In this document: positions 1,532-6,008 of the stretch, piece by piece | Position numbering within the stretch: the first letter of the stretch is position 1 | How the letters are laid out: each line of letters starts with the position of its first letter | Virus record (IMG/VR): IMGVR_UViG_2778261203_000004 | Direction: 5' to 3' (one strand) | DNA length: 11,745 bases | Origin: a virus | Taxonomy: Duplodnaviria > Heunggongvirae > Uroviricota > Caudoviricetes | Program-made: the position numbers and the translations under genes | The notes under the pieces: generated by a model | Database searches by the model: none | The model's input: the letters and a program-made list of their open reading frames with translations, nothing else | Told to the model about the DNA's origin: nothing

Positions 1532-1741
1532 TTAATTTGAATACAATGCAATTCTCGAGGACTGAAGTTTCTCGCAATTAAAATTTATCAGTTTTACTTT
1601 CTGCTCTCTGGAAACGCCTGCTTCTTTTTTACCTGAGAGCATTTTTTCGCATTCTGATTTCGTTAGTTTAGATTTTGAATATCTTGTCCAGTTAGTAGGA
1701 GTGCCACCTTCCTTTTCAATAGTGGCGGTAATTTTATACAT
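1532..1741 (-). CDS. ydaC: Small prophage protein of unknown function (69 aa)
   Basis: The track ORF 1532..1813 would overlap ralR by 80 nt. The internal ATG at 1741 (MYKITATIEKEGG...) is preceded by a strong GGAGGTG Shine-Dalgarno and gives 69 aa, with only an 8 nt overlap with the ralR 3' end. Confidence 0.65.
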   Translation of the reverse strand: MYKITATIEKEGGTPTNWTRYSKSKLTKSECEKMLSGKKEAGVSREQKVKLINFNCEKLQSSRIALYSN

Positions 1742-1928
1742 GAACACCTCCATTATTATTTCCAGTGGTTCGTTTATTCCATCTTTCGAGTGCTTCTTTT
1801 TCACTTCCACCATAACCGGTTCGGGATTCGCATCCGTTACACTTCGCTCGGTAATATCCTGAAATGGCTTTCACCGTTACTGATGGGCAACCACAAAATG
1901 GACATGGTTTAATATTGTCATATCTCAT
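1734..1928 (-). CDS. ralR: RalR/Lar-like restriction-alleviation protein, type I toxin (64 aa)
   Basis: Translation MRYDNIKPCPFCGCPSVTVKAISGYYRAKCNGCESRTGYGGSEKEALERWNKRTTGNNNGGVHV with two CxxC pairs. Start at ATG 1928 chosen over the upstream ATGs at 1940 and 1967, which lack a ribosome-binding site. Recognised from memory as Rac RalR. Confidence 0.75.
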   Translation of the reverse strand: MRYDNIKPCPFCGCPSVTVKAISGYYRAKCNGCESRTGYGGSEKEALERWNKRTTGNNNGGVHV

Positions 1929-1984
1929 AATTTTTCTCATAAAAAATATTTCAAGTTGGCGGTGCATTACACCGCCAGGCTGAA

Positions 1985-2794
1985 TTATTCCTCTGAATTA
2001 TCGATTACACTGTATTCCCCGGTTAATACAGAGGAATCTGCAGGATCGATTGTCAGTGGTTCCTTTTCATCCATTGATACTGCACGCTGGATCTCAATTG
2101 ATACGGGCAAATATTTGAACAGGCGACGAATAGCCGTTTTCTTTGCCATTTCTTCCCAGTGAGTTACCCACGGCCCGTTATTACCAGCTTTACTCAGGCT
2201 GCGCACCAGCTCAATCTGTTTGCGCGTCATAACTTCAAACTGAGTACCTCCGTCTTTCAGTCTTGCGACAGCATAGACGTGGGTAACCGGGGCATCTTCG
2301 TTTTCTCCCGGGCGGTGTATTAACTTTTCATCAAGGCCAAATTCGAAGCTAAACTCGTCACCTTCACGGACAACACGGGCTGACAGGCTGGCGATTTGAC
2401 CAGAACGGCGAGCCAGATCAATCATGCCGCGATAGCCAATGATTAGCTGAACGTTCTTTTTATCGCTCTTTTCGTTTTTATTACCAAAAGGCAGTAAATA
2501 TGCATGACCGAGGGCGCTACCTGGCTCAAGTCCGAGCTGTGAACACTGTACGATCGCACTGACAAAACTCATAGTGTCACAGTTTCCTAACGCCGGAACT
2601 TTACGAATTTCTGTGGTGGCGATACGGATCATACGTTCAGCCGTCATATGGCGTGGAAGAGCTGCTGCCAGTTGCTCTTTCATTGATGGCTGGTTAATAA
2701 AACTAATCACGTCGCTATTTTTAACTGCTGCTGGTGCACGGTTTCCCTGAGTTTTTTGCAGATCGGCTTTTGCGATTGGTGGTTGCTTAGTCAT
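1985..2794 (-). CDS. recT: RecT single-strand annealing protein (269 aa)
   Basis: Protein begins [24 protein letters not shown]. The ATG at 2794 is preceded by AAGGAA at about 9 nt, whereas the track's longer N-terminus (ATG at 2851) has none. The 3' end of recE overlaps it by 8 nt, suggesting translational coupling. Confidence 0.9.
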
Positions 2795-5387
2795 TTGCAT
2801 ATTCCTTAGCCCAGCGGGGCAGTGATAATGTCTTAATAGCTGGCCATTCATCGGTATTCAGGCAGTCAGACAGGGTTCGCAGATTGCGGTGATATTCCTG
2901 TTGACCTGCCAGTTTTGCTTCTTCGCCCATCATGAAAATTTCAACCGGATAACGTCCGCATTCAATAGTTGTGCTGGCAACCAGAAAAACGAAAGTTGGC
3001 TGCACTCCAAACTGTGCTTCATAACCGTCACTGTAGAATGCATCCTGAACGTGATAGCGGTAGTCGTAATAAGCGGTTTTGAATCGTTGAATATCCGCCG
3101 TAGTTTTCACGTCCATGATCCAGTGAAATTCAGGGATAATTTTGTCCGGACGGCACCGACACAAAATTCCTGTTTCAGGATCTTCCCAGTAAATTGATGA
3201 TTCAGCGTGTCCGGCGCTTTCAACAAGCCATTGCCCCAGCGGCAAAGCCATAACGCTTTGATACATGAGTTCAATTTTCCGGCCTTCTTCCGCAGTGATA
3301 ACCGTTTTTCCTGTGCTTGCGCATTCCATCAGAAACGCTTTCTCTTCTTCTTTTCCGGCGTTTGTACGGCGGTTAAATTCAGGTGCTACGATAAAGCGGT
3401 TACTGAATTCTTCCGGTTCAAGTACCCGGCAGTGGAAAGCAGTTCCTAAATCGAGCGTTTTTGTCTTTGTGGTGTCCACGGGGGCATTTTTACGCCACAA
3501 ATATAGTGCCGGAGTATCAGCAATGTCATCGAGCTGAGACTTACTGATACCGGGACCCGCGTGGTAATTCTCATTCGAAATTCCGTAATAAATACCTGGC
3601 TCTATGTCTTCTACGATTACGGGATCTGCGACTTCGCCAGTTTCATCACTGCAATCGCGATGCGGATCGCTGCCAGCATTCTCATTGTGCGGATGTTCAG
3701 CGCCTTCCATTTCCTCCGGATCATTTTCCTTAGCTTCAACCTGACTCTCTTCATCGAATGTTTCCTGGTATGTTGCGTCGCCCATCACCGCACCACAGTC
3801 AGGGCAGTTATCCCCGCCAGTCTGGCCGCAGGCATTGCAGGCTATTTCCGGTTCCTGTTGCACTACTGGCTCAGGTTGATTCATATCCGGGCTGGTTTTT
3901 TCCGTTTCTGGCTGGTTCTGGTACACACAATCGCGAGTCTGGATCCCCTTTACCCATTTCGGATCGTTCGGGTCGCTAATTCCGTCAACAAATTCATCAC
4001 GTGATGCAGCAAGCAATTTATCGGCATCGACAGGATTTTTTGATGGAATGTTTTTCCGGGCTTCATGGAGTTCTGCCCGCAGTTCCTGATATTTCGCATC
4101 AACAGAATTTACCTGTGACTGAGCATCCAGCGGCTGCGTGTCCTGATGATGTTCAGTTGCGTCCGGTTCCATTGTTTCAGCCTCTCCCTGTTCAACTGCC
4201 GTTGTTCCAGATGGTTGCGGTTTTTCTTCATCATCCTGTTTTCCTTCTTCTGTTACTCGCTGCGGCATCGGGGCAGAGGAGCGACCGCAGGCAATATCCA
4301 CGATTTCCGGATCAGGGTTGGCATGATCGGTTTCAGTCAGTACTTTGTTCAGATATTCAGTGACGTGCGCGGGGATGACCTCGATCCCAATTGGTGCTTC
4401 TTTTACGGACGCAACCACGATGGCGCGGGAATAATCCAGCCCGCCAGGCATGGTGATGAATTTGTCGCGGAAAACAGAAAAGGGCGGTTTATTTTCAGCG
4501 ATAATTTCCTCAATGCGTTTAGCGTGTGCCGGATGAAGGTTATAGATGTCCAGATCCATTGAACGGGCCAGTACGCCAGTGGCTACGTCGCGCGCCAGTG
4601 ACGTCAGATCGTGTACGAAACCTTCGCCGCGATCGGTGAGGTTTCCGCCGCCAGCATTAGCACCGGAAGCCGTGCGAGTGATGTGTGAAACACGATTACC
4701 CTTCATCCACTCTTTTGTCAGCAGTCCTCGATCGGTGTAGTCAGCGTTCAGGTATGCTTCGAAAAAAGCAGTTATCAGTCCCAGGTTTGAATTACCAGGA
4801 TTAGGGAAAACTTTGTCAGTGTCACGAACCAGTTTGTGGAGTTCGCGAATTTCCAGCGGGTCGAGCAGGCTGGTTTTGTGGGAAACAGCCAGGGCAGTAA
4901 CAGCCGGTAGTTCTTCAGCCCGAGCAATGTGTAATGCCTGGAGTCCGTCGCGTGAAACGTGCGTTACCGGTTTTTCGCTGCCGTGTTGAGCAAGCCAACG
5001 AATGGGCAGTTCCTGGCCAGAAATTGGGAGTAGCATATTCTCCTCAATCTCAGTCATGTCTTCGCCGTTGACGTTGGTATTGCCTTGATAGTGAGCGTTG
5101 TCTGGTGCTGCTCCCGGTTTTAGTTCCCATGTCATGGAGTCTTTGCTGAGTTGATAGCGTTCACTCCAGGTAAAATCGATCTCACCTTCAGCGGGCAGGT
5201 CATTAACGACAGGAAAATTCGTGGCAACAGCTTTAAAATAGCTGCTCAGTTTTTTACCTGACTTAACGATCAGGTAGTCCAGAGTGGCACAGGTCGATTC
5301 AAAATCGTTGCTTGCCCACAGGACGACGTCAGGTTCACCGGATGATTTTTTCGCTTTCCGTAACAGGAAGAGTGGTTTTGTGCTCAT
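2787..5387 (-). CDS. recE: RecE exonuclease VIII (866 aa)
   Basis: Single 866 aa ORF; GAGG Shine-Dalgarno upstream of ATG at 5387. Long acidic, low-complexity N-terminal and central region, then a C-terminal nuclease region. Directly upstream of recT with an 8 nt overlap. Confidence 0.9.
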
Positions 5388-5837: not shown

Positions 5838-6008
5838 TTAAAGTTCATGTGCCATCTGGTCTTTTTCGGCACAAGCTTCACTGCAATATTTTCTCGGTTC
5901 GTCTTTTGATAAAATCCCGTGCATGAAGTGAAGCATTCTTTCAATAGCTTTGCTTTCTTCAACGTCTTTTTTGCAAAGGTGGTAAGCACATTTTATTTTC
6001 TTAGTCAT
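5838..6008 (-). CDS. ydaE: Small Cys4 putative zinc-binding protein (56 aa)
   Basis: Below the 60 aa cut-off of the ORF track. My hand translation of the complement from 6008 gives [56 protein letters not shown], stop at 5838-5840. Cys at positions 7, 12, 42 and 46. The ATG overlaps the kilR stop as ATGA; GGAG sits about 9 nt upstream. Confidence 0.7.
   Translation of the reverse strand: MTKKIKCAYHLCKKDVEESKAIERMLHFMHGILSKDEPRKYCSEACAEKDQMAHEL

What the first reader, a model, noticed from the sequence alone, without database searches (positions are those of the whole stretch)
3710..4310. Cys4 motif inside the acidic low-complexity N-terminal part of RecE
Roughly residues 360-560 of RecE are very acidic and rich in E, D, Q and P. 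Inside this region the sequence [24 protein letters not shown] gives C-x2-C-x7-C-x2-C (nucleotides about 3795-3839), the spacing of a zinc-ribbon or zinc-knuckle. As I recall, recombination activity resides in the C-terminal nuclease region and the large N-terminal part has no assigned function, so a metal-binding module there would be worth checking.
Basis: partly seen in the sequence, partly recalled or inferred. Interest (0 to 1): 0.4.

Follow-up and report, generated by a model that had tools for sequence, protein, structure and literature searches.

The report
Portable Cys4 mini-module in RecE linker
The four-cysteine motif in the Rac prophage RecE exonuclease is real and strongly conserved. 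It belongs to a roughly 30-residue, probably zinc-binding cassette that temperate phages also attach to other DNA enzymes, which gives a concrete handle on the unexplained N-terminal part of RecE.

Summary
The window is the E. coli Rac prophage. recE lies at 2787-5387 on the minus strand and encodes 866 aa. The motif C517-x2-C520-x7-C528-x2-C531 sits exactly at 3795-3839, inside an acidic, Q/P-rich stretch.

It is not a chance motif. A broadly defined CxxC-x(2-20)-CxxC appears in only 67 of 100,000 shuffles of RecE.

The conserved unit is longer than the four cysteines: CxxCG-x2-GGG-x-CPDCG-x-VMGD[A/S]TY-x2-M/F. I collected versions using only the cysteine-free VMGDATY part. Of 116 distinct versions, 100 have four or more Cys and 4 have none. 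The other 12 are mostly frameshifted or deleted fragments. Third codon positions are highly diverged (0.51 differences per site, against 0.04-0.10 at positions 1 and 2).

The cassette is optional in the RecE family. It also occurs in DnaQ-like prophage exonucleases, at the C-terminus of P2-like phage Dam methyltransferases, and in small early-operon proteins of Mu-like and lambdoid prophages.

No Pfam family or solved structure covers it. AlphaFold2 gave low confidence (pLDDT about 57).

Best reading: a zinc-stabilised docking cassette in RecE's flexible linker, with an unknown partner. It is an undescribed member of the zinc-knuckle kind and of moderate interest.

The parts
2787..5387 (-). 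recE (exodeoxyribonuclease VIII), 866 aa, the host gene of the feature
   Evidence: ORF list and translation. NCBIfam NF007259 matches aa 1-866. 100% identical to E. coli SE11 recE.
3756..3839 (-). Conserved mini-module, aa 517-544: [28 protein letters not shown]
   Evidence: Coordinates. Conservation. Purifying selection at the codon level.
3825..3839 (-). Knuckle 1, C517-N-A-C520-G (CxxCG)
   Evidence: TGT/TGC synonymous variation is seen at both Cys codons. In type-B relatives the second Cys is lost and a new Cys appears three residues before CPDC.
3792..3806 (-). Knuckle 2, C528-P-D-C531-G (CPxCG)
   Evidence: CPDCG is invariant in alignments A3 and A4 of diverse carriers.
3756..3791 (-). 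Conserved tail after the knuckles, aa 533-544: [12 protein letters not shown]
   Evidence: V, G, T and Y are invariant in A3 and A4. The tail is retained in Cys-less homologues as PDNGPVMGDATY.
3840..3929 (-). Variable Q/E/P-rich spacer, aa 487-516, between the two conserved islands
   Evidence: Length varies by indels among homologues. AF2 pLDDT is below 50 here.
3930..4028 (-). Upstream conserved island, aa 454-486: [33 protein letters not shown]
   Evidence: Nearly invariant in A1 and A2. The RGE[FY]VxGISDPxDPKW core is kept in most RecE-family proteins that lack the Cys4 module. AF2 places helices at 455-462 and 476-488.
3594..3755 (-). Acidic tail, aa 545-598, linking the module to the nuclease domain
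   Evidence: Sliding 30-aa net charge of -8 to -11. AF2 pLDDT about 46-50.
2790..3575 (-). C-terminal PD-(D/E)XK nuclease domain, aa 605-866. It is the only part with a solved structure.
   Evidence: PDB 3H4R covers aa 605-866. Pfam PF12684 matches aa 615-850.
4854..5384 (-). N-terminal Exonuc_VIII domain, aa 2-178
   Evidence: Pfam PF06630, E = 6e-98.

Best explanation
RecE residues 517-544 form a small autonomous cassette. Two cysteine knuckles (CxxCG and CPDCG, joined by a glycine-rich 7-residue loop) most likely bind one Zn2+. The knuckles hold the adjacent invariant peptide G-x-V-M-G-D-A/S-T-Y-x-x-M/F in a defined shape.

In RecE the cassette sits in the flexible, acidic, protease-accessible tether between the N-terminal region and the C-terminal nuclease ring. 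It is not part of the catalytic or RecT-dependent core. The same cassette is attached to unrelated DNA enzymes (a DnaQ-like 3'-5' exonuclease and a Dam methyltransferase) and to small early-operon proteins of lambdoid, Mu-like and P2-like temperate phages. It is also neutral to acidic rather than basic.

I therefore infer that it is a portable protein-docking module that tethers whatever it is fused to onto one common partner. That partner is probably a host DNA-replication or repair factor of gamma-proteobacteria.

Shown: the motif, its conservation, purifying selection at the protein level, and its modular distribution. Inferred: zinc binding. Speculative: docking function and partner identity.
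For: The motif is at the stated coordinates and rare by chance.

I anchored on the cysteine-free G.VMGDATY part. Of 116 distinct versions, 100 have four or more Cys and 4 have none. The other 12, with 1-3 Cys, are mostly frameshift or deletion fragments or single C->Y/G changes.

One ligand position has migrated. Type A is C-x2-C-x7-C-x2-C and type B is C-x6/7-C-x2-C-x2-C, and both keep four Cys.

Synonymous TGT/TGC variation occurs at all four Cys codons. The Oceanisphaera copy has an identical 13-aa core, and 10 of its codons differ synonymously from the window. Mean pairwise differences at codon positions 1, 2 and 3 are 0.10, 0.04 and 0.51.

The same cassette occurs in several architectures:
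- RecE PD-(D/E)XK exonucleases of E. coli and Salmonella;
- 812-aa Rv2179c/DnaQ-like exonucleases at the same operon position;
- RecE-N proteins without a nuclease domain;
- the C-terminus of P2-like phage Dam methyltransferases;
- small proteins in Mu-like and lambdoid early regions.

The core (first Cys to Tyr) carries no net positive charge (sequences). The flanks are predicted disordered while the Cys4 block scores slightly higher. [quoted passage not shown]
Against: There is no direct evidence of metal binding. AF2 models are low confidence (mean pLDDT 57) and show no ribbon, and a Foldseek search found nothing. No Pfam zinc-ribbon model reaches threshold; the best are DZR at E = 0.07 and TFIIB at 0.075.

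A Cys-less lineage keeps the tail, so zinc is not strictly required for whatever the tail does. Many RecE homologues lack the cassette, so it is dispensable for RecE function in general. No partner has been identified.

All identified catalytic fusion partners act on DNA, which fits a DNA-binding role equally well. The apparent 44-aa stand-alone version is probably a frameshifted Dam fusion. Evidence for autonomy therefore rests on small proteins of 60-190 aa.
Confidence: 0.5

Rival explanations
1. The cassette is a nucleic-acid-binding zinc ribbon. It adds DNA or ssDNA affinity, or processivity, to the DNA enzymes it is fused to (RecE, DnaQ-like exonuclease, Dam).
For: Every catalytic domain found fused to it acts on DNA. 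The weak profile matches are to generic nucleic-acid-associated zinc ribbons such as the TFIIB and VapC6/Nob1-type ribbons. An invariant Tyr could stack on bases.
Against: The core is neutral to acidic. It has two nearly invariant Asp residues and no conserved Lys or Arg. In RecE it is embedded in a strongly acidic stretch with net charge -8 to -11 per 30 aa. Its tail is conserved even without the Cys.
Confidence: 0.2
2. The cassette is a regulatory handle on potentially toxic early proteins rather than a targeting device. It would act as a degron or adaptor-recognition tag for a host protease, or as an auto-inhibitory element.
For: It is typically C-terminal or in exposed linkers of early-operon proteins next to kil, gam, dam and exonuclease genes. 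It is optional within each family.
Against: No known degron resembles it. Nothing in the data bears on protein stability.
Confidence: 0.1
3. The cysteines bind iron (rubredoxin-like) or form disulfides or a redox switch, rather than a structural zinc site.
For: CxxCG and CPxCG are also the rubredoxin knuckle motifs (established knowledge). Sequence alone cannot discriminate between metals.
Against: The 7-residue spacing and the lack of the aromatic core of rubredoxins. The context is cytoplasmic phage DNA enzymes. There is no rubredoxin Pfam hit.
Confidence: 0.07
4. The motif has no function of its own. It looks conserved only because prophage mosaicism spreads one recent DNA segment, or because a DNA or RNA element overlaps it.
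For: Within E. coli the segment is shared at 80-90% DNA identity among different prophage exonuclease genes. Rac is a defective prophage.
Against: Distant carriers keep the peptide while their synonymous sites have diverged heavily (0.51 differences per site at position 3). The amino-acid context differs completely between carriers. There is no Rfam hit, and promoter- and terminator-like sites are at the level expected by chance in 3400-4600.
Confidence: 0.03

Closest known systems
Zinc ribbon / rubredoxin-type double knuckle (CxxCG ... CPxCG)
   Same: Two CxxC pairs with the canonical Gly after each knuckle and Pro in the second. All four Cys are conserved. The weak best profile hits in the PDB are zinc ribbons: 9qtr_i, the 2lcq ribbon and TFIIB.
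   Different: There are only 7 glycine-rich residues between the knuckles, too short for the usual inter-knuckle beta-hairpin. No Pfam ribbon model reaches threshold. AF2 does not predict a ribbon. The conserved VMGDATY extension has no counterpart.
RanBP2/NZF-type mini zinc fingers (C-x2-C-x10-C-x2-C), about 30-residue protein-docking modules (from memory)
   Same: It would work like them: a tiny Cys4 knuckle that presents a few invariant side chains to a protein partner, and that occurs as a promiscuous add-on in many architectures.
   Different: No sequence relationship was tested or expected. The NZF family is eukaryotic, and the spacing and signature residues differ.
DnaJ cysteine-rich domain (CxxCxGxG repeats, PF00684)
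   Same: Gly-rich CxxC knuckles. A neighbouring gene in one carrier locus (L099 6537-7541) has a true CxxCxGxG pair.
   Different: RecE has CxxCGxxG and CPDCGxV, not CxxCxGxG. It has one site, not two. There is no PF00684 hit.
YacG-type small zinc-ribbon inhibitors (zinc ribbon plus tail that binds GyrB; from memory)
   Same: The concept of a small Cys4 ribbon whose adjoining tail makes the functional protein contact.
   Different: No sequence similarity, and not tested here.
Other Cys4 proteins of the same Rac early-left operon: RalR/Lar (window 1734-1967, minus strand) and YdaE (5838-6008, minus strand)
   Same: Small Cys4 motifs in the same operon.
   Different: Their spacing and flanking sequence differ. 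They were not retrieved by the module profile.

Membership tests
Cys4 zinc ribbon / zinc knuckle | Two CxxC pairs with knuckle signatures (CxxCG, CPxCG) | tested here: met
   C517-NA-C520-G and C528-PD-C531-G. CPDCG is invariant in diverse carriers.
Cys4 zinc ribbon / zinc knuckle | All four ligand cysteines conserved across homologues | tested here: met
   100 of 116 versions anchored on the Cys-free tail have four or more Cys, and 4 have none. The partial losses are mostly fragments or single changes. One ligand has migrated in type B while the count stays at four.
Cys4 zinc ribbon / zinc knuckle | Folded beta-hairpin knuckles with tetrahedral site geometry | tested here: inconclusive
   AF2 pLDDT is about 62 at the motif in the 176-aa model and 57 in the 47-aa model, with no strands predicted. 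Foldseek against the PDB gave no match.
Cys4 zinc ribbon / zinc knuckle | Stoichiometric Zn2+ binding | not testable with these tools
   Needs metal analysis of purified protein.
Cys4 zinc ribbon / zinc knuckle | Significant match to a curated zinc-ribbon profile | tested here: not met
   Pfam finds nothing on RecE aa 180-614. The best hits on other carriers are DZR at E = 0.07 and Zn_Ribbon_TF at E = 0.075, both below their cut-offs. The best PDB profile hit has E = 0.037.
RecE / exodeoxyribonuclease VIII (host protein) | PF06630 N-terminal domain plus PF12684 PD-(D/E)XK nuclease, and the NF007259 equivalog | tested here: met
RecE / exodeoxyribonuclease VIII (host protein) | The Cys4 module as a family-wide feature | tested here: not met
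   Full-length RecE-family proteins P0149, P0150, P0164 and P0165 (PD-(D/E)XK type) and P0140 and P0169 (DnaQ type) keep the GISDP motif but lack the module.
DnaJ-type cysteine-rich domain | CxxCxGxG repeats forming two zinc centres | tested here: not met
   The pattern is CxxCGxxG / CPDCGxV with a single site. There is no PF00684 hit.
Rad50-type intermolecular zinc hook | A single CxxC at the apex of a coiled coil, with zinc shared between two chains | tested here: not met
   Four Cys lie within 15 residues of one chain. The flanks are predicted disordered, not coiled coil.
Beta-clamp-binding motif (QL[SD]LF) | Gln at position 1 and hydrophobic residues at positions 4 and 5, conserved in carriers | tested here: not met
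   The tail is TY-x-x-M-[F/E/A/L/V]. There is no conserved Gln, and position 5 is Glu or Ala in Salmonella and Atlantibacter RecE.

The most novel reading that the evidence does not exclude
The cassette is a previously unrecognised, horizontally shuffled hijacking tag. A zinc-scaffolded peptide lets temperate phages of enterobacteria, Aeromonas and relatives plug different DNA enzymes (RecE 5'-3' exonuclease, DnaQ-like 3'-5' exonuclease, Dam methyltransferase) and small effectors onto one host hub. That hub would be, for example, the SSB/replisome network. It would explain why full-length RecE behaves differently from the nuclease domain alone. The SSB-C-terminus-like tails that follow the cassette in many Dam fusions point the same way.
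Probability: 0.25. Interest if true: 0.65.

Novelty: new member of a known kind. Interest (0 to 1): 0.4.

Why it matters
RecE/RecT is a workhorse of recombineering. Full-length RecE is what makes linear-linear direct cloning efficient, yet two 2023 reviews still describe the N-terminal ~600 residues as having unknown or unclear function.

This analysis turns part of that region into defined, testable pieces. One is a roughly 30-residue conserved Cys4-VMGDATY cassette. The other is an upstream GISDPxDPKW motif. Both lie in an otherwise disordered acidic tether.

The same cassette appears on phage Dam methylases and DnaQ-like exonucleases, which suggests a shared targeting or regulatory principle among temperate-phage early DNA enzymes. 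Identifying its partner could explain full-length RecE behaviour. It could also give a small transferable tag for engineering recombineering or methylation tools.

If instead it is only a structural staple, the result is a new DUF-level domain family and little more.

Tried and rejected
1. AF2 of RecE 425-600 with a 36-sequence alignment, and of the 47-aa module with an 18-sequence alignment. Both gave mean pLDDT of about 57, so no geometry can be claimed.
2. Foldseek of the small model against the PDB gave only E values of 8-9.
3. Pfam, NCBIfam and PHROGs scans found no named family for the module. Only full-length 'exonuclease' PHROGs contain it.
4. The PDB sequence and profile search found only 3H4R for aa 605-866, plus non-significant generic ribbons.
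5. The first literature search was wasted because 'RecE' matched 'receptor'. Whole-word searches found no mention of zinc or a Cys motif in RecE, and no paper contains the peptide strings. Fu et al. 2012 is not held, so the details of the N-terminal truncation series could not be checked.
6. The homologous-protein tool returned only proteins of about query length, so it contributed fragments and tiny ORFs.
7. The multi-stretch hits in the exhaustive search (P0145, P0146, P0162, P0171, P0174, P0177, 600-2300 aa) lack the Cys4 pattern. In P0145 the VVGDATYKATF match lies in a cysteine-free context. I set them aside as probably unrelated repeat proteins.
8. The 44-aa 'stand-alone' module P0197 is rejected as evidence of autonomy. 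It begins with the last strand of Dam (EVIGVL), and the upstream Dam ORF is frameshifted.
9. A DNA- or RNA-level explanation is rejected.
10. The beta-clamp motif, Rad50 hook and DnaJ-repeat readings are rejected on pattern (see the membership tests).

Full report
**What the window is**

The 11.7-kb window is the early-left region of the E. coli Rac prophage. On the minus strand the order is intR, xisR, rcbA, ralR, recT, recE, racC, ydaE and kilR. This follows the ORFs and the annotated MG1655 locus.

recE is 2787-5387 on the minus strand and encodes 866 aa. It is 100% identical to E. coli SE11 and 99.9% to MG1655, and it matches NCBIfam NF007259 end to end. Pfam places Exonuc_VIII on aa 2-178 and the PD-(D/E)XK domain DUF3799 on aa 615-850. 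Nothing is assigned to aa 180-614. The only solved structure, 3H4R, covers aa 605-866.

**The observation**

The peptide [24 protein letters not shown] is present. The cysteines are C517, C520, C528 and C531, encoded at 3795-3839 exactly as reported.

Residues 360-560 are indeed acidic and Q/P-rich: D 10%, E 13%, Q 9%, P 9%, net charge -30. A broadly defined CxxC-x(2-20)-CxxC arises in only 67 of 100,000 shuffles of RecE.

The region is not uniformly low-complexity. It has two conserved islands separated by a variable Q/E/P spacer, followed by an acidic tail:
- aa 454-486, with core RGEFVxGISDPxDPKW;
- aa 517-544, the Cys4 motif plus [11 protein letters not shown].

**Conservation of the module**

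In other E. coli prophages, the gene at the same operon position (dicB, DUF1482, exonuclease, xis, int) is an exonuclease of about 812 aa. Its C-terminus is an Rv2179c/DnaQ-like 3'-5' exonuclease rather than PD-(D/E)XK. It nevertheless shares RecE aa ~455-590, including the Cys4 block.

Of 120 fragments from the first protein search, 98 carry C-x2-C-x7-C-x2-C. The rest are truncated or frameshifted, or carry a single Cys substitution (two cases).

An exhaustive HMM search of 1.84 billion representatives gave 78 hits. These define a mini-module, CxxCG-x2-GGG-x-CPDCG-x-VMGD[A/S]TY-x2-M/F. It occurs in proteins of very different length and context.

To avoid circularity I anchored only on the cysteine-free part, G.VMGDATY:
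- 116 distinct versions were found;
- 100 have four or more Cys (89 have exactly four);
- 4 have none; these are the three Atlantibacter RecE loci and the metagenomic protein P0160, all reading PDNGPVMGDATY;
- 12 have one to three, mostly frameshift or deletion products, plus six single C->Y/G changes.

A second spacing class, C-x6/7-C-x2-CPDC, has lost the second Cys and gained another nearby. Such ligand migration is expected of a metal site.

All four Cys codons show TGT/TGC variation. The Oceanisphaera copy has an identical 13-residue core, and 10 of its codons differ synonymously from the window. Across 60 distinct cores, pairwise differences per site are 0.10, 0.04 and 0.51 at codon positions 1, 2 and 3.

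So conservation reflects long-term selection on the protein in the recE frame. It is not explained by a recently shared DNA segment or an overlapping nucleic-acid element. Rfam finds only RalA at 1557-1735, and promoter- and terminator-like sites in 3400-4600 are at the level expected by chance.

**Distribution of the module**

The cassette is optional in the RecE family. Full-length members with either nuclease type keep the GISDP motif but lack the cassette; examples are P0140, P0149, P0150, P0164, P0165 and P0169.

It is also found well outside RecE:
- Salmonella RecE, P0157.
- RecE-N proteins without a nuclease domain: P0125 and the 690-aa class.
- Dam methyltransferases encoded on about 40 viral contigs of roughly 23-80 kb, and in the P2-like Enterobacter phage phiT5282H. 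Two representatives scanned against Pfam match PF02086 (MethyltransfD12), and the others share the Dam sequence motifs. The cassette is at their C-terminus.
- An Aeromonas phage protein, P0186.
- Small proteins of 60-190 aa ending in the cassette. One is next to kil in a Mu-like early region, with GemA further downstream. One is next to kil and Mu-gam. One lies in a RecT/RdgC/Dam operon.

No Pfam family covers it. No paper in the library contains its peptide strings. Two 2023 reviews call the RecE N-terminal part of unknown or unclear function.

**Structure**

AF2 on aa 425-600 predicts helices at 427-445, 455-462 and 476-488. It gives pLDDT of about 62 over the Cys4 block and below 50 for the spacer and acidic tail.

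The isolated module, with an 18-sequence alignment, scored 57 and showed only a short helix after TY. Foldseek found nothing. The best PDB profile hits are generic zinc ribbons at non-significant E-values.

Zinc binding is therefore an inference from the CxxCG/CPxCG signature and the conservation pattern. It has not been demonstrated.

**Mechanism**

I commit to the following reading. It is a zinc-stabilised knuckle that presents the invariant VMGDATY peptide as a portable docking cassette. In RecE it lies in the flexible acidic tether between the N-terminal region and the nuclease ring.

Arguments for docking over DNA binding:
- the core is neutral to acidic, with two near-invariant Asp residues and no conserved basic residue;
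- the tail persists without the cysteines;
- the cassette is appended to unrelated domains, usually at an exposed end.

The main rival is a DNA-binding ribbon, because every catalytic fusion partner acts on DNA. A degron or regulatory handle, iron or redox chemistry, and 'no function' are less likely. The last is contradicted.

The partner is unknown. [quoted passage not shown] The cassette is thus a candidate contributor to the full-length-specific behaviour, but that link is untested.

**Verdict**

The feature is an undescribed member of the zinc-knuckle kind with an unusual, promiscuous distribution among temperate-phage early proteins. It is of moderate interest.

Noticed in passing
L107-L185 (viral contigs, Dam ORFs ending about 100-130 nt after the match) and L106 4149-5120: Many P2-like phage Dam methyltransferases that carry the cassette end in an acidic tail with a terminal Phe...GAFDDQEAF*...GAFDGAEGF*...GALNAEPF*...CETQEPF*. 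This applies to 23 of 38 distinct ORFs of 295-340 aa. The tail resembles the E. coli SSB C-terminal tip DFDDDIPF* (from memory), so these methylases may mimic the SSB tail to join SSB-partner proteins.
   Followed up: partly
window 3954-4001 (RecE aa 463-478) and P0140-P0189: The RecE-family linker holds other short conserved motifs besides the Cys4 cassette. RGE[FY]VxGISDPxDPKW is kept in most family members retrieved. Subsets carry N[VL]GGG[IV]FSVEGL-like and SNEGEKTEV-like motifs. The linker looks like a string of short linear motifs in acidic disorder.
   Followed up: partly
P0155 and P0129 (E. coli proteins): Two natural rearrangements have endpoints in the cassette. P0155 is an in-frame deletion joining the N-terminal ...GANAGGGN to ...[13 protein letters not shown] through the repeated GGGN. 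P0129 is a RecE(1-526)-RecT fusion broken right after [10 protein letters not shown].
   Followed up: no
window 1734-1967 (-) and 5838-6008 (-): Two other small proteins of the same operon have their own Cys4 patterns. RalR/Lar has CPFCG...CNGC, and YdaE has C-x4-C...C-x3-C. They are unrelated in sequence to the RecE cassette.
   Followed up: no
window 1557-1735 (+): The RalA antitoxin sRNA (Rfam RF02694, 225 bits) lies antisense to the ralR/rcbA region. This is a known feature.
   Followed up: yes
L103 5211-6130, L102 3-907: The 44-aa 'mini-protein' P0197 overlaps the end of a Dam ORF whose C-terminus is out of frame, and it begins with Dam's last strand (EVIGVL). It is probably a frameshifted Dam-cassette fusion, not a stand-alone gene.
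   Followed up: yes
L099 6537-7541: The gene just downstream of the cassette-bearing P0159 encodes a 334-aa protein with a DnaJ-like pair, CSRCKGHG ... CPDCGGRG. This is a different Cys-knuckle module in the same early operon.
   Followed up: no
P0003 (E. coli fragment): In this fragment the cassette is followed by a second copy of the [14 protein letters not shown]...[10 protein letters not shown] segment. This suggests a tandem duplication of the linker unit in some prophages.
   Followed up: no
L006, L011, L016 (genome contigs): Near-identical E. coli Rac/recE sequence turns up on short contigs labelled Roseburia MAG, Veillonella parvula MAG and Nitrolancea hollandica. This is most likely assembly or binning contamination.
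   Followed up: no
Literature: A 2025 paper (PMC12640716), citing earlier work, reports that phage invasion triggers Retron-Sen2 through Dam methyltransferase and RecE exonuclease acting on msDNA. These are the two enzyme classes that carry the cassette in some phages. Whether the trigger proteins themselves have the cassette was not checked, and no Salmonella phage record matched.
   Followed up: no
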